A stretch of 64,000 bases of DNA from the human T2T-CHM13v2.0 reference genome, Homo sapiens: the NCBI RefSeq assembly GCF_009914755.1, contig NC_060943.1. The stretch is one strand, 5' to 3'. The translations under genes were made by a program, and so were the position numbers. This document shows positions 8,743-20,677 of the stretch, one piece after another. The notes beneath the pieces were generated by a model. It was not told the origin of the DNA, made no database searches, and saw only the letters and a list, made by a program, of their open reading frames with translations. Positions within the stretch are counted from its first letter, which is position 1, and each line of letters starts with the position of its first letter.

Positions 8743-8863
8743 CTTGAGCTTTAAACTGAAGAGTTTCGCTTACAGCCTCACCACTGGCATCCATGTGATA
8801 TCGTTTGGCTTTTTCTTGTAATACAGCATCAAAAGTCTCCTGTGTAATTCGTCTGGCTGCCAT
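8743..8863 (-). CDS. SUGP2: SUGP2 coding part of exon 2 ([40 protein letters not shown]); whole exon 8743-8874
   Basis: Translated by hand. ATG at 8863-8861 in strong context (AACATGG), acceptor ctctctcaccatag before 8874, donor GTAAAA at 8742. In frame with exon 3. Confidence 0.93.
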
Positions 8864-8916
8864 GTTATTTTGCCCTATGGTGAGAGAGAAAAAAATACAC
8901 TAAGAGCAACAACTTG

Positions 8917-10254
8917 GAGCTGGGCGCGGTGGCTCATACCTGTAATCCTGGCACTTTGGGAGGTCGAGGTGGGCGGATCACCTGAGCTCAGGAGTTCGAG
9001 ACCAGCCTAGGCAACATGATGAAACTAAAATACAAAAAATTCAGGCTGGGTGTGGTGGCTCACACCTGTAATCCCAGGACTTTGGGAGGCTGAGGTGAGC
9101 GGATCATTTAAAGTCAGGAGTTGGAGACCAGCCTGGCCAACATGGCAAAACCCTGTCTCTACTAAAAATACAAAAATTAGCCGGGCATGGTGGTGCCTGC
9201 CTTTAATCCCAGCTACTTGGGAGGCTGTGGCAAGAGAATTGCTTGAACCCAGGAGGCGGAGGTTGCAGTGGGCCGAGATCATGCCACTGCACTCCAGCAT
9301 GGGTAACAGAGTGAGACTCCGTCTCAAAAAAAAAAAAAAAAAAATTTCACCAGGCATGGTGGCACGTGCCTGTAATCCCAAATACTCAGGAGGCTGAGGC
9401 ATGGGAATTGCTTGAACCAGGGAGACAGAGGTTGCAGTGAGCCGAGATCATGCCACTGCCCTCCAGACTGGGGGACAGAGCGAGACTGTCTCAAAGAAAA
9501 AAAAAATGCGTGCTCACAGAACCTGCTCTATTTCACTTAATCCTCGAAGTAAGGAGGCAGTAATCCATAATCCTCGCATGGTACTTCAGAGGCAAGCTGG
9601 ACCCTTTTTATTTATCTTTTTTTTTTTTTTTTTTTAAGTAGAGACAGGGTTTTGCTAGGTTGGCCAGGCTGGTCTCGAACTCCTGACCTCAAGCAATCTG
9701 CCCACCTTGTCTGGACTCTTTTAAGGGGGTCTCTGCCCTCACGAAGTTCACAGGTGTGTGCTGGCTGAAAAGGAGCAAGACAAACCTTCTCTGGGCCCAT
9801 CTCCTTGGAATCCATTAAAAGCAGCTCTGTGAAAGCAGTTCTATCTGCTGGAGGAAGGTGTCAACCAACACACATAACTGAGCATAACAGAGTAGGAAGG
9901 GTGGGACCACAACCCTCGCAAATCGTGGTTAGGAAAGAAGAGATCAATCTTTTTTTTTTTTTTTCTTCCTTTTTTTGAGACTCTCCCTGTTGCCCAGGCT
10001 GGAGTGCAGTGGCATGATCTCGGCTAACTGCAACCTCCGCCTCCTGGACTCAAGCAATTCTCCTGCCTCAGCCTCCTGAGTAGCTGGGATTACAGGAGTC
10101 CGCCACCGCATCCGACTAATTTTTATATTTTAGGTAGAGATGGAGTTTCACCATGTTGGCCAGGCTGGTCTTGAATTCCTGACCTCAAGTGATTCGCCCG
10201 CTTCGGCCTCCCAAAGTGCTGGGATTCCAGGCCGTGAGCCACTGCGCCTGGCCC
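8917..10254. mobile_element. Alu cluster: nested (+) Alus 8917-9506, (-) Alus 9610-9710 and 9948-10254
   Basis: Alu consensus; a full Alu sits in the linker of another. Confidence 0.9.
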
Positions 10255-11230
10255 AGGATCACTCTTTTCCCATTCACAGACTCAGCAGGGCACAGAGGCT
10301 CTGAGAACTTCCTTCCCTTCTAAAAGAAGCCTCTTGACAGTGAGTGGCGGGACCCCCAACCAATGACAATGAACTAGTGACAGTTCATTCTGCGCTGGGT
10401 CCTTGCGCGATCTCCCAACCACCCACTGAAGAGGCGGGTCCTGTTATGAATGACATTAGGGTGAGGAGGCAAAGGGAGACAGACTCAACGACCCATTCAA
10501 GACCAGACAGCCCAGATTTGAACCTGGCAAAAAGGGTATTCGTGCATCCAAAGCCCCGAAGAATGAGTAAAAAGATTAAGCAACATTTTGGGGTCCAGGG
10601 GCTGCATCCTTAACCATCAAGATATCCCGCTTCGCAAAACCTCCAACTTCAAGAGACAACCCGTAGGGTCCATTTCCCATCACGATCACCGCCTCCCCCA
10701 CCCGCCTCCCCCAGTCCCATCCTTCAGCCCTTTTCCCGGGGCGCCCCCTTGTTCTCTGCTGGCAAAGGGCAGGGTTCCCGGGTCAGGTGACCCAGGTTCA
10801 AATCACACGATTCTAAGCTTTCTGTGCTTCCGTTTCCCCACCTATGGAATGGGCAGCCAGTAAAGGGGCTGGTGTGGGGGCTGAACCGGTTCTAAAGAGG
10901 GCAAGGGCCCGATGCAGCGCTGGGCGCCGTTATCTCCTCCCGAGCGGGGGCCGCTCCGAGTTCGGGAGGAATGAATGAACGACTGAACCAATGAGCCTTT
11001 GTGGACGCGGCCCGCCGTCTCCCGGCCTCTGCGGGCGAGGAAATGGGGGCGCCGGGCCCGGGAGGCCGCAGCCGGCCACCCAGGCCAACCCGGCGGGGAC
11101 GCGGCCGCCGCCGCAGCCAGAGGGCCGAGCCTGCGACGCCATCACGGAGCCCGGGGCGGGCCCCCAAGGCCGAGCCCGAGCTTCCCACCCCGGGAGCCAC
11201 CCACCGACGACGCCAGGGCCCGGGCCTCAC

Positions 11231-11420
11231 CCCGAGACCACCGCGCGCGGAGCCACCCCCGCCGCCGCCTCAGGCTCCTCACCCGCCGCCGCCGCCGCGC
11301 GAGGCGGGGACATGCAAATGAACCAACGGTCTCCGCAGCGCCGCGCCGCGCAGGCGCAAGCCGCCGCCGAGTCCTGGTGCGCAGGCGCGGGCCGCCGCGG
11401 CCCGGCTCTCTTGCGCAAGC
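11231..11420 (-). other. SUGP2: SUGP2 exon 1 with two alternative GTGAGG donors (exon ends 11231 or 11283); TSS approximate
   Basis: Two GTGAGG donor matches on the minus strand inside the CpG island. The 5' end cannot be fixed from sequence alone. Confidence 0.65.
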
Positions 11421-17915: not shown

Positions 17916-18249
17916 CTGAATGCATGATCAGATTCGGGTTTGAGATTTTGGCACGATGACTTCACAGGTGCATTTTGTTCTTGTTCAGGAGGTAGGTGTT
18001 GCTGGTTTCTCTTGATGATGTGAGATCAAGCAGTAGACTGAGTTCCTGTCTACCCCTTGTTGGGCTCCCATCAGTTTTACACCTGATGGTTTTGGATCCT
18101 GTGGGATCATTATCTGTTTCTCTCCTGTCACAGCTGATCAGCTGGAATCGGAAGCAGAACTTTTCCTCATCCTCTTTTTATAACCTGGGACTCATTTGTA
18201 CAAGGGAGGCAGGTTAAGTGCTAGGTTTTTTTTAAAAAAATTGTTACTA

Positions 18250-20312
18250 ATTATTGTAGAGACAGTGTCTCGCTACGTTGGCCAGGCTGGTCTTGAACTC
18301 CTGGATTCAAGTGATCCTCCCATCTCAGCCTCCTGAGTAGTAGCTGGGAGTACAAGAGCATGCCACCACTCCCTGCCAAGAGCTGGATTCTTGGCCAGTT
18401 TTCAGAAGCCTGAGCTGTATTTGTTTTAGTATTATGAAAGCACAGAGTTTGACTTTTTTTTTTTTTTTGCAACATCGTCTGACTGTCAGCCAGGCTGGAG
18501 TGCAATGGCATGATCTCGGCTCACTGCAACCTCCGCCTCTGTGCTCAAGTGGTTCTCCTACCTCGGTCTCCCTGATTGCTGGGATTACAGACGTGAGCCA
18601 CCACACCTGGCCCAGATTTTGATTTTGATATGTACTGGATTTTTTTTTAATGCTCACTTGTCTCATCTGTAGCTACCAGGCACCCCTTAGGGTTTGGAAG
18701 CTTCCTTGCTTCCTGGTCTCACAAGACCCCAGCGTTACCTGCCCCATGACCTGCTGGGACTTGGAATCAGCCATTCCTCCAGAAGCCCTGGCTCCTTGTT
18801 TTTAAAGATTTTATGTAGAGACAGGGCCTCCCCATGTTGTCCAGGCTAGTGTTGAACTCCTGGCCTCAAGCCATCTTCCTGCCTCAGCCTCCCAAAGTGC
18901 TGGGATTACAGGAGTGAGCCACCTAGCCCTGGCCCCAGCTCCTTTTCGTGGGAAATGGTAGAAACCATACATGGTGTTAGAGGTATTCAGTGCTCCTGTG
19001 CTGTCATTTCTCCTAGGCATTTTTAGTTGCTATGACTAGAAAATTAGATCTTTGTTTACCTAAGAGAAAACACATGATGGGTTTATATGGATATTCCCAT
19101 TTCATATATAGGAGTTCTGAGATTTTTTTTCTCAACTTTATCGAGGTATAGGATGTACTTTTTTTTGAGACGGAATCTTGCTCTGTTGCCCAGGCTGGTG
19201 TGCAGTGGTGCAATCTCGGCTCACTGCAACCTCTGCCTCCTGGGTTCAAATGATTCTCCTGCCTCAGCCTCCCGAGTGGCTGGGATCACAGGTGCCCGCC
19301 ACCATGCCCGGTTAATTTTTGTATTTTTAACAGAGATGGGATTTCACCATGCTGGCCAGGCTGGTCTTAAACTCCTGACCTCAGGTCATCCACCTGCCTC
19401 GGCCTCCCAAAGTGTTGGGATTACAGGCATGCGCCACTGCACCCAGCGAATTGTATTTAATATAGTGTATATCTTATACTATATATGGTACATAAATGAT
19501 ACAAATATATTGCATATGTTTACATTATACAACTTGACGATTTTATATGCATGCAGATTGTGAAATACTCACCTCAATCAACAGTTACCTTTTTCTTTTT
19601 TGTGGTGAGAACACTTAGAATCTACCCTCTTAGCAAATTTCAAGTATACCATACAATATTGTTAATTATAGGGAGTTCCGAGTTTTTAGTTGATAGTACG
19701 ATGTTAGAATCTTTTTTTTTTCTTTTTGAGTCAGGGGCTTGCTCTGTTGCCCAGGTTGGAGTGCAGTGGCGCAATCTTGGCCTCCCAGGCTCAAGCGATC
19801 CTGCTACCTCAGCCTCCTGAGTAGTTGGGACTACAGGCATGTGCCACCACACTCAGCTAATTTTTATTTTTATTTTGGTAGAGACAGACTTTTGCCATGT
19901 TGTCCAGGCTGGTCTTGAACTCCTGGGCTCAAGCAATCCTCCTGCCTCAGCTTCCCAAAGTGTTGGGATTATAGGCATTGACCCACTGCGCCCAGCCAGA
20001 ATCTTTTTTCTTTTATTCTGATTCCTAATAAGATAATCATTATTATTTGCTACATCCGTAATAGTTTCAGAATAACATTACTAGTATCATTATATTAAAG
20101 AACCACCTTTCTTAGATAAAATGTAGTAAACTCTGTGTTCTCTCCTACACTTTGTTTTTTTTTCCCAAGACAGGGTCTCACTCTGTGGCCCAGGCTGGAG
20201 TGTAGTAGTGTGATCATGGCTCACTGCAGCCTTGACCTCCCAGGCTCAAGTGATCCTCCCACCTCGGCCTCTCAGAGTGCCGGGATTACAGGCTAAGCCA
20301 TCACACCCGGCC
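18250..20312 (-). mobile_element. Series of antisense Alus with an L1 fragment (about 19450-19680)
   Basis: Alu consensus; L1MA/MB-like text (gtggtgagaacacttagaatctaccctcttagcaaatttcaagtat). Confidence 0.85.
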
Positions 20313-20510
20313 TCTTCTGTATTTGCAGAAGTTCTAGGGAAGTAGGGATATCACCCTTTCCTGTGATAACAGGTGGGAAGAATTTCTCCAGGGTGGTTGT
20401 AGGGCTCTGGTCGCTGGTAGATGCTTCCTAAGTGGCGTTTTCAAGGTGGCCAGGCCCTGCCATTGCCTGCTCACCCTTGAGGTAGCTCTCTCTTTGCCCT
20501 AACCTCTCAG

Positions 20511-20677
20511 CTCAGGAGCATCTATCGGCTGCACGCCAACATCAACACAGGCGAAGATGGTCTCCAAGCGCATTGCCCAGGAGACCTTTGATGCAGCTGT
20601 GCGCGAGAACATCGAGGAGTTTGCGATGGGGCCAGAGGAGGCAGTGAAAGAGGCCGTGGAGCAGTTTGAATCGCAAG
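20511..20677 (+). CDS. ARMC6: ARMC6 exon 3; main ATG at 20557 ([40 protein letters not shown])
   Basis: Acceptor cctaacctctcag at 20510, strong Kozak AAGATGG, donor AAG|GTAGGG at 20678. Confidence 0.93.

What the first reader, a model, noticed from the sequence alone, without database searches (positions are those of the whole stretch)
8743..20677. Head-to-head neighbours SUGP2 and ARMC6 start with homologous first coding exons
Seen: SUGP2 8863-8743 (-) encodes [40 protein letters not shown] and ARMC6 20557-20677 (+) encodes [40 protein letters not shown]. They share 14/40 identities ungapped and 18/41 with one gap each. Both are exactly 121 nt from ATG to donor, and both end CAA G|gta (phase 1). 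At DNA level CAGGAGACTTTTGATGC versus CAGGAGACCTTTGATGC match 16/17. The two proteins are otherwise unrelated (SURP/G-patch versus ARM repeats). Inference: an inverted duplication around the promoter gave SUGP2 the ARMC6 N-terminal exon and may have created the bidirectional arrangement itself. Retention of RIxQETFDA suggests a selected small helical module, so the co-transcribed proteins may share a partner, heterodimerise or compete. ARMC6 is the likelier donor because it is the broadly conserved family.
Basis: partly seen in the sequence, partly recalled or inferred. Interest (0 to 1): 0.88.

Follow-up and report, generated by a model that had tools for sequence, protein, structure and literature searches.

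The report
Shared N-terminal exon of SUGP2 and ARMC6
The two back-to-back human genes SUGP2 and ARMC6 really do begin with copies of the same ancient 40-residue coding exon, a relationship that the Pfam database already records as the ARMC6_N domain but that no searched paper discusses.

Summary
The similarity is real homology and not chance. None of 200,000 shuffles reached the observed alignment score. A profile built from ARMC6 N-termini alone finds the SUGP2 exon as the only other hit in the six-frame human genome (E 1.4e-6). The reverse search gives E 2.0e-7. Profile-profile probability is 98.9%. The module is kept in SUGP2 from amphibians to mammals and in ARMC6 from sharks to human. Shark ARMC6 is the ARMC6 closest to every SUGP2 row compared. 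One tree branch separates the two families, so this was one old duplication and not recent gene conversion. Homology stops at the exon edge, and the phase-1 donor fits SUGP2's downstream exons. This is classic exon duplication or shuffling between neighbours. It is not wholly new. Pfam 38.1 family PF27652 "ARMC6_N" is already marked on both protein families, and only on members that keep the module. ARMC6 as donor, an inverted duplication creating the bidirectional pair, and a shared partner all remain unproven.

The parts
8743..8863 (-). SUGP2 copy of the module. It runs from the ATG to the phase-1 donor, 121 nt and 40 codons plus 1 nt, inside exon 8743-8874.
   Evidence: It is found by the ARMC6-only profile at E 1.4e-6 genome-wide.
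20557..20677 (+). ARMC6 copy of the module. It runs from the ATG to the phase-1 donor, 121 nt, inside exon 20511-20677.
   Evidence: It is found by the SUGP2-only profile at E 2.0e-7 genome-wide. Human ARMC6 fragment P0075 starts with these 40 residues and carries PF27652.
10800..11800 (.). Shared CpG-island promoter region. It holds the non-coding first exons of both genes: SUGP2 10842-10916, 11231-11365 and 11556-11638, and ARMC6 from 11397. The transcripts overlap head to head.
   Evidence: GC is 0.58-0.81 and CpG observed/expected is 0.78-1.18 in 200-nt bins. Exon positions come from the supplied annotation.
2410..4017 (-). SUGP2-specific large exon of 1608 nt, covering aa 41-576. It is symmetric, phase 1 to phase 1. 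It lies between the module exon and the part homologous to SUGP1.
   Evidence: SUGP1 homology starts only at SUGP2 aa 579.
21793..21875 (+). Next ARMC6 coding exon. It encodes the conserved continuation GVDLSNIVK, which has no counterpart in SUGP2.
   Evidence: Alignment A1. Exon table.
12004..12032 (+). Upstream start of the ARMC6 MANE Select coding sequence. It puts 25 extra residues in front of the module in the 501-aa isoform.
   Evidence: Passages of PMC8666550 say mouse and zebrafish lack this exon.
11283..11313 (-). Alternative upstream start used by some SUGP2 transcripts. It adds 14 residues in front of the module.
   Evidence: coding parts of NM_001321698 and related transcripts.

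Best explanation
The two exons are true homologues. Each encodes a roughly 40-residue N-terminal module that Pfam 38.1 calls ARMC6_N (PF27652). The human genome holds exactly two detectable copies, in mirror orientation 11.7 kb apart on either side of a shared CpG-island promoter. They descend from one ancient local duplication of an ATG-containing exon, older than the amphibian/amniote split. I infer that the 5' end of ARMC6 was copied in inverted orientation. Its phase-1 donor then spliced onto a SURP/G-patch gene body related to SUGP1, whose homologous part begins with a phase-1 exon. This replaced SUGP1-type 5' exons, so the event is exon shuffling between neighbours. Hydrophobic spacing suggests the module forms two amphipathic helices joined by a Pro/Gly-containing turn, which would suit a small docking element. 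It is under strong constraint in ARMC6 and much weaker constraint in SUGP2. Shown: homology, two copies only, a single old split, matching phase, and homology bounded by the exon. Inferred: direction, inverted-duplication mechanism, helical fold and docking role.
For: The pairwise similarity is far beyond shuffles: 0 of 200,000 reached the observed score. An ARMC6-only profile of 8 rows finds the SUGP2 exon as the only other hit of 9 scored candidates in the six-frame human genome, at E 1.4e-6. A SUGP2-only profile of 12 rows finds the ARMC6 exon as the only other hit of 14, at E 2.0e-7. The joint profile finds only these two plus one noise hit at E 6.55. hhalign gives 98.9% probability and E 1.3e-17; 98.8% with 49 versus 8 rows. 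The PF27652 flag is on 66 of the 86 fetched proteins, and all 66 have the module. None of the 13 proteins lacking the module is flagged. Non-mammalian SUGP2 aligns to ARMC6 without gaps. Shark ARMC6 is the closest ARMC6, or tied for closest, for 12 of 12 SUGP2 rows; human SUGP2 against shark ARMC6 is 23/39. A single branch with support 100/99 separates 8 ARMC6 modules from 45 SUGP2 modules. Third-codon identity is only 15/39, so there has been no recent conversion. On phases, the module exon ends in phase 1, the big exon is phase 1 to 1, and SUGP1 homology begins at an exon that starts in phase 1 in both genes. Peucedramus SUGP2 (P0003) and ARMC6 (P0077) both list a single contig of 13,658 bases, so the genes are probably neighbours in a bird too. 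Hydrophobic periodicity peaks at 85-100 degrees, with a P/G break at column 27.
Against: The direction of transfer is not established. I could sample no non-vertebrate ARMC6, and no shark or teleost SUGP2, because all three protein-search calls were used and length limits apply. The only lungfish SUGP2 retrieved (P0036, isoform X2) lacks the module at its N-terminus. The tree is unrooted and has 42 columns, so the duplication cannot be dated relative to the shark split. No non-coding remnant of an inverted duplication survives, and the long inverted repeats in 8000-21500 are ~120-290-nt pairs at 72-87% that look like Alu-type elements. The mechanism is therefore inferred from layout alone. Constraint in SUGP2 is weak: 4 of 40 columns are invariant in 12 rows, four passerine proteins have a deleted or degenerate second half (P0018, P0027, P0028, P0029), and several mammals replace Phe11 by Leu or Ile. 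The module's function in SUGP2 is therefore uncertain. No structure could be predicted and none is solved. The same-contig inference rests only on equal contig lengths.
Confidence: 0.8

Rival explanations
1. SUGP2 was the donor. The exon arose in the SUGP2 lineage and was copied onto ARMC6.
For: The tree is unrooted, and both families have the module in every major group I could sample. Nothing I ran excludes this direction directly.
Against: In ARMC6 the conserved N-terminal region continues into the next exon (GVDLSNIVK, in 9 of the 11 rows). SUGP2 holds only the exon-1 piece, which looks like a partial copy. The ARMC6 copy is much more constrained. Shark ARMC6 sits nearest to all SUGP2 rows. 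SUGP2's paralogue SUGP1 has no such exon. A review calls a plant ARM protein a putative homologue of ARMC6 (passages of PMC6356271), which suggests ARMC6 is the older family.
Confidence: 0.2
2. The resemblance is due to chance or to convergence of two short helical, Glu/Ala-rich N-termini.
For: The peptides are short and acidic-helical. The human ARMC6 peptide alone also gives weak summed hits to designed helical-repeat proteins in the PDB.
Against: 0 of 200,000 shuffles reached the score. Cross-family profile hits are significant at genome scale. Similarity increases toward basal lineages. Length, phase and start codon are identical. The designed-protein hits disappear when the family profile is used.
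Confidence: 0.01
3. The similarity is maintained or was created by recent gene conversion between the inverted neighbouring exons.
For: The two exons are inverted and close together, and there is a 16/17-nt identical run.
Against: Modules cluster by gene and not by species, on a single 100/99 split. Codon-aligned nucleotide identity is 69/117, with only 15/39 at third positions. The 17-mer spans Q-E-T-F-D-A, most of which are two-codon residues. GC content differs, 43% against 57%.
Confidence: 0.02
4. The module is a degenerate armadillo repeat or a UBA-like fold and not a family of its own.
For: The human ARMC6 peptide gave E 2.4e-4 to a designed ARM-repeat protein, as a sum of about 4-bit repeats. 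There is a UBA_3 hit at E 0.37.
Against: There is no Pfam Arm hit on the module even at E<=10; Arm matches only at residues 185-223 of P0075. The PDB hit vanishes with the family profile. UBA_3 scores 11.1 bits against a cut-off of 20.4. Pfam 38.1 gives the module its own family.
Confidence: 0.1

Closest known systems
Pfam 38.1 PF27652 'ARMC6_N'
   Same: This is the same object. The family is precomputed on ARMC6 and on SUGP2 proteins, and only on those that keep the 40-residue module. It is carried by 93-97% of members of the three ARMC6 clusters shown in the Atlas listing.
   Different: The family is a domain label only. I could not read its description or boundaries, because it is absent from the local Pfam copy. 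It says nothing about the genes being neighbours, the mirror layout, the exon and phase identity, or the origin. No searched paper mentions it.
Exon shuffling or duplication through phase-compatible introns (established concept, recalled)
   Same: Homology is bounded by one exon. The donor phase (1) matches the acceptor phase of the recipient exons. A symmetric 1-1 exon follows.
   Different: Here the duplicated piece is the start-codon exon, the two copies stay adjacent in inverted orientation, and they share one CpG-island promoter.
SUGP1, the paralogue of SUGP2 244 kb away on the same strand
   Same: It has tandem SURP domains and a G-patch. BLASTP homology to SUGP2 runs from SUGP2 aa 579 onward, with the same phase-1 start of the first SURP exon. 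It is also head to head with a neighbour, MAU2.
   Different: It has no ARMC6_N module and no counterpart of SUGP2 aa 1-576.
Bidirectional CpG-island gene pairs
   Same: The transcription starts lie within a few hundred bases on opposite strands of a CpG island.
   Different: Partner genes of such pairs are normally unrelated in sequence. Here they share a homologous start exon.

Membership tests
Pfam PF27652 ARMC6_N | Match to the family's HMM above its cut-off | not testable with these tools
   The model is absent from the local Pfam library. Indirect evidence comes from the precomputed flag. Human ARMC6 fragment P0075 starts with the window's 40 residues and is flagged. The primate SUGP2 cluster representative P0062 differs from the human module at 3 of 40 residues and is flagged.
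Pfam PF27652 ARMC6_N | The flag tracks the N-terminal module and not some other region | tested here: met
   66 of 86 fetched proteins are flagged and all 66 have the module. Of the 20 unflagged, 13 lack the module and 7 have divergent or deleted versions. None of the 13 without the module is flagged (against 13, 21, 22). SUGP2 and ARMC6 share no other similar region.
Homologous exon pair (exon duplication/shuffling) | Statistically significant sequence homology between the exon products | tested here: met
   Searches give genome-wide E 1.4e-6 and 2.0e-7 with cross-family profiles. One search gives probability 98.9%. One search gives 0 of 200,000 shuffles.
Homologous exon pair (exon duplication/shuffling) | Same intron position and phase, with homology ending at the exon edge | tested here: met
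   Both are 121 nt from ATG to donor and end in phase 1. The ARMC6 continuation GVDLSNIVK has no match in SUGP2. In other species the evidence is only indirect. Bird gene models P0007, P0023 and P0026 (SUGP2) and P0083 (ARMC6) break or carry extra residues exactly at this junction.
Homologous exon pair (exon duplication/shuffling) | Phase compatibility with the recipient gene | tested here: met
   The next SUGP2 exon is phase 1 to 1. The first exon homologous to SUGP1 starts in phase 1 in both SUGP1 and SUGP2.
Inverted segmental duplication across the promoter | Residual non-coding mirror similarity, or conserved adjacency in early-branching vertebrates | tested here: inconclusive
   The 25 longest inverted repeats in 8000-21500, the only ones listed of 230 pairs, are about 120-290 nt at 72-87% and look like Alu-type pairs. 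Adjacency is inferred in one bird from equal contig length. No fish or shark loci were available.
Armadillo repeat (Pfam Arm, PF00514) | Match of the module to the Arm model | tested here: not met
   No hit on either 40-residue peptide at E<=10. In P0075 the Arm match is at residues 185-223 only.
UBA-like three-helix domain | Match to a UBA-type model above cut-off | tested here: not met
   UBA_3 gives E 0.37 and 11.1 bits against a cut-off of 20.4, on a 76-residue shark ARMC6 N-terminus.

The most novel reading that the evidence does not exclude
The duplicated start exon may make the two co-transcribed neighbours functionally coupled. Under this reading, the ARMC6_N helical hairpin binds the same partner in both proteins, or the two copies bind each other. 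ARMC6 is reported to bind a double-stranded RNA analogue and to associate with telomere factors. SUGP2 is reported to be a chromatin-associated protein that binds deep in introns and represses splicing. The two would then compete for or share one ligand, and the inverted duplication of ARMC6's promoter-proximal exon would itself have founded the bidirectional gene pair in an early vertebrate.
Probability: 0.15. Interest if true: 0.65.

Novelty: new member of a known kind. Interest (0 to 1): 0.4.

Why it matters
This is a clean, datable example of a start-codon exon duplicated between two divergently transcribed neighbours and kept in both since before amphibians and amniotes diverged. It gives a concrete handle, residues 1-40, on two poorly characterised human proteins. 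The domain-level homology is already catalogued in Pfam 38.1. What this work adds is the gene-structure and evolutionary reading: mirror layout, identical length and phase, a single old split, and absence from SUGP1. It also gives a testable suggestion that the module is a docking element. The result does not open a long-standing question.

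Tried and rejected
Searches for a third copy in the human genome with each peptide and with three profiles found only the two exons, plus one noise hit on chr3 at E 6.55.

A region search from a SUGP2 N-terminus returned only mammalian SUGP2. There were 33 candidates, and ARMC6 was not collected by the word filter. 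That blank says nothing about ARMC6.

The local Pfam library has no model for the module, and the genome search does not know PF27652.

PDB sequence searches found no structure of the module or of ARMC6. The weak hits to designed helical proteins vanish when the profile is used.

I considered the ARM-repeat and UBA-like readings and dropped both.

No inverted-repeat remnant of a duplication was found.

With PF27652-bearing clusters skipped, the Atlas showed no ARMC6-named cluster among the rows it listed of 30 hits. I therefore learned nothing about ARMC6 lineages without the module. Atlas results are leads only.

Literature. The 6 papers that hold both gene names are association, fusion or copy-number studies by their titles and abstract starts (search listing only). 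There are 0 papers with 'PF27652' or 'ARMC6_N'. The G-patch preprint 10.64898/2026.06.30.735655 has 0 occurrences of ARMC6 in its main text (passages). Its supplementary interactome tables were not seen and could list ARMC6. I read passages only of PMC8666550, PMC11312991, PMC6356271, PMC12269839 and PMC8558236, and none mentions the homology. Sampson and Hewitt 2003 (Gene 305:91) on SF4/SFRS14 was seen only as a reference entry.

The duplication could not be dated relative to sharks because the tree is unrooted and short. In that tree I left out four degenerate passerine rows (P0018, P0027, P0028, P0029). It also lacked 9 module-bearing SUGP2 proteins that the pattern used missed (P0039, P0052, P0054, P0057, P0060, P0061, P0063, P0068, P0071, P0072 were listed there as 'no module', although their N-termini show it or, for P0052, one search matched it).

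Full report
**What is there.**

They are two 40-codon open starts of 121 nt from ATG to a CAA G|gta donor. BLASTP gives 18/41 identities, 32 bits and pairwise E 3e-9. The 14/40 ungapped count and the 16/17-nt run are also correct.

One wording needs a qualifier. The ARMC6 MANE Select transcript begins 25 codons upstream, in a small exon at 12004-12032. Some SUGP2 transcripts begin at 11283-11313. The module is therefore not at the extreme N-terminus in every isoform.

**Is it more than chance?**

Yes. None of 200,000 shuffles of the ARMC6 peptide reached the Smith-Waterman score of 74. The shuffle mean was 21 and the maximum 54, or 61 with Met fixed.

In six-frame searches of the whole 3.1-Gb reference, each human peptide's only other candidate is the other exon, at E 3-4 at that scale (2 of 2 candidates scored).

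- A profile of 8 ARMC6 N-termini (human, dolphin, three birds, frog, two sharks) finds the SUGP2 exon at E 1.4e-6, as the only other match of 9 scored candidates.
- A profile of 12 SUGP2 N-termini finds the ARMC6 exon at E 2.0e-7, as the only other match of 14.
- The profile-profile comparison gives 98.9% probability and E 1.3e-17 over 40 columns. With 49 against 8 rows it gives 98.8%.
- A joint profile finds no third human copy. The only extra hit is on chr3 at E 6.55.

**Conservation.**

The SUGP2 large exon retrieved 43 proteins from mammals, birds, a turtle, lizards, caecilians, axolotl, a toad and a lungfish. Of these, 34 start with the module. The other 9 are N-terminally cut models or other isoforms, including the one lungfish protein. 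All 32 proteins in the region search also have it.

The ARMC6 exon-4 search retrieved 12 fragments. Eight have the module, including two sharks, and 4 are cut at the N-terminus.

Non-mammalian SUGP2 aligns with ARMC6 without any gap.

Shark ARMC6 is the closest ARMC6, or tied for closest, for 12 of 12 SUGP2 rows. Human SUGP2 against shark ARMC6 is 23/39, nearly as close as human against owl SUGP2 at 25/39. Similarity that grows toward basal lineages is what common descent predicts.

**One old event, no conversion.**

In a maximum-likelihood tree of 53 modules, a single branch with support 100/99 separates 8 ARMC6 rows from 45 SUGP2 rows. Four degenerate passerine rows were left out, and some module-bearing rows were missed by my pattern. 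The tree is unrooted and has only 42 columns.

Codon-aligned nucleotide identity is 69/117, with only 15/39 at third positions. Exon GC content is 43% against 57%. The 17-nt run simply spans the conserved residues Q-E-T-F-D-A.

The event predates the amphibian/amniote split. It cannot be placed relative to sharks with these data.

**Gene structure.**

The spliced human proteins share nothing else. The only BLASTP hit is SUGP2 1-52 against ARMC6 26-82 of the 501-aa isoform. SUGP1 against ARMC6 gives nothing below E 3.9.

The structure of SUGP2 is as follows.
- The module exon runs from phase 0 to phase 1.
- It is followed by a 1608-nt exon that is symmetric, phase 1 to phase 1 (aa 41-576).
- Homology to SUGP1 starts only at aa 579, in an exon that begins in phase 1 in both paralogues.

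The duplicated exon's donor is therefore phase-compatible with the SURP/G-patch body. This is the classical signature of exon shuffling, an established concept that I recall and did not test.

In ARMC6 the conserved region continues into the next exon (GVDLSNIVK, in 9 of the 11 aligned rows). SUGP2 has no counterpart, so the homology is bounded by the exon.

Both genes have non-coding first exons inside one CpG island at about 10800-11800, with GC 0.58-0.81 and CpG observed/expected 0.78-1.18. Each then has an intron and the ATG exon. The layout is mirror-symmetric.

No non-coding mirror similarity survives. The 25 longest inverted repeats listed look like Alu-type pairs.

SUGP1 lies 244 kb away on the same strand.

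In the bird Peucedramus, the SUGP2 and ARMC6 fragments both list one contig of 13,658 bases. The genes are probably neighbours there too, but I did not verify this.

**Already in a database.**

The precomputed Pfam column of the protein search shows PF27652.1 on both SUGP2 and ARMC6 proteins.
- Across the 86 fetched proteins, 66 are flagged and all 66 carry the module.
- Of the 20 unflagged, 13 lack the module.
- The other 7 unflagged have divergent or partly deleted versions: four passerines and three hystricognath rodents.
- None of the 13 proteins without the module is flagged.

The Atlas output names the family 'ARMC6_N' (Pfam 38.1) and shows it on 93-97% of members of the three ARMC6 clusters shown.

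The model is not in the local Pfam copy. I could not read its boundaries or description. That it maps to residues 1-40 of SUGP2 is an inference from this perfect association and from the absence of any other shared region.

No searched paper holds 'PF27652' or 'ARMC6_N'. The six papers naming both genes are unrelated by title and abstract start. A 2026 preprint on human G-patch proteins, which treats SUGP2 at length, never mentions ARMC6 in its main text.

**How it probably works.**

The column-averaged hydrophobicity of the 17-row alignment has a periodicity peak at 85-100 degrees in both halves. There is a Pro/Gly-containing break at column 27. This fits two amphipathic helices forming a hairpin, but the support is weak and computed from sequence only.

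ARMC6 keeps 25 of 40 columns invariant from shark to human in 8 rows. SUGP2 keeps 4 of 40 in 12 rows, and some passerines have lost part of the second helix.

My best reading is that this is a small docking element. It would be essential to ARMC6, perhaps as part of a slightly larger N-terminal unit with the next exon. SUGP2 would retain it under looser constraint, at the head of a long, Pro/Arg-rich region that I judge by eye to be probably disordered.

An ARM-repeat reading and a UBA-like reading were tested against Pfam and not met.

Nothing I found bears on a shared partner or on heterodimerisation. Published passages describe ARMC6 as binding poly(I:C) (PMC11312991) and as a reported TRF2 and telomerase interactor (PMC6356271). 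They describe SUGP2 as a chromatin-associated splicing repressor that binds deep in introns (preprint). A nucleic-acid-related link is conceivable but speculative.

**Verdict.**

The homology and the exon-level duplication are supported. ARMC6 as donor is plausible, at roughly two chances in three on indirect grounds. The founding inverted duplication and functional coupling are untested.

The domain relationship is already catalogued by Pfam, so novelty is limited to the gene-structure and evolutionary reading. Interest is moderate.

Noticed in passing
window 29443-30016 (+), ARMC6 exon 4: The exon encodes FGHAHNHAK, an alternating His motif. Passages of PMC12269839 and the listing of PMC7873184 name ARMC6 as a METTL9 histidine-methylation substrate with an HxH preference.
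   Followed up: no
P0018, P0027, P0029 and P0028 (passerine SUGP2 proteins): Loxia, Molothrus and Calcarius SUGP2 models lack several residues of the module's second half (RYRSGAAGEP...). The Lonchura model is heavily diverged. None carries the PF27652 flag. This could be real decay in one passerine group or a gene-model error.
   Followed up: partly
P0037/P0039 (Ambystoma) and P0038/P0041 (Rhinatrema): Axolotl has two SUGP2-like proteins with the module on a contig of the same length. Rhinatrema has two 'uncharacterized' SUGP2-like proteins on one contig length, one with the module and one without. This suggests local SUGP2 duplications in amphibians.
   Followed up: no
P0034 (Anolis 'SUGP2 isoform X2'): Its precomputed Pfam list adds Arf, Ras-type and G-alpha families to PF27652. 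It is probably a chimeric gene model that joins the module exon to a neighbouring GTPase gene.
   Followed up: no
Atlas cluster at rank 10: This is a cluster of 51 'hypothetical proteins' whose representative is 153 aa. All members carry ARMC6_N and no other family is listed, and taxa are not recorded. They may be fragments or stand-alone module proteins.
   Followed up: no
chr19:19413485-19458285 (outside the window; SUGP1/MAU2): SUGP1, the paralogue of SUGP2, also sits head to head with a neighbour. Its start at 19457965 is 320 bases from the MAU2 start at 19458285. It is on the same strand as SUGP2 and 244 kb away.
   Followed up: no
SUGP2 coding exons 1, 3 and 9 (chr19:19166743-19166863, 19154896-19155016, 19130168-19130288): Three SUGP2 coding pieces are each 121 nt long. 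I take this as coincidence and did not compare exons 3 and 9 with the module.
   Followed up: no
window 8000-21500: The introns flanking the promoter are full of inverted repeat pairs. 230 pairs were found, and the longest are about 290 nt at 81-87% complementarity. They look like Alu-type elements in both orientations.
   Followed up: no
G000 chr3:200131180-200131239 (+), locus L005: This is the only other match of the joint module profile in the human genome. It has E 6.55 and 18.8 bits and covers profile positions 19-38 only. I treated it as noise.
   Followed up: no
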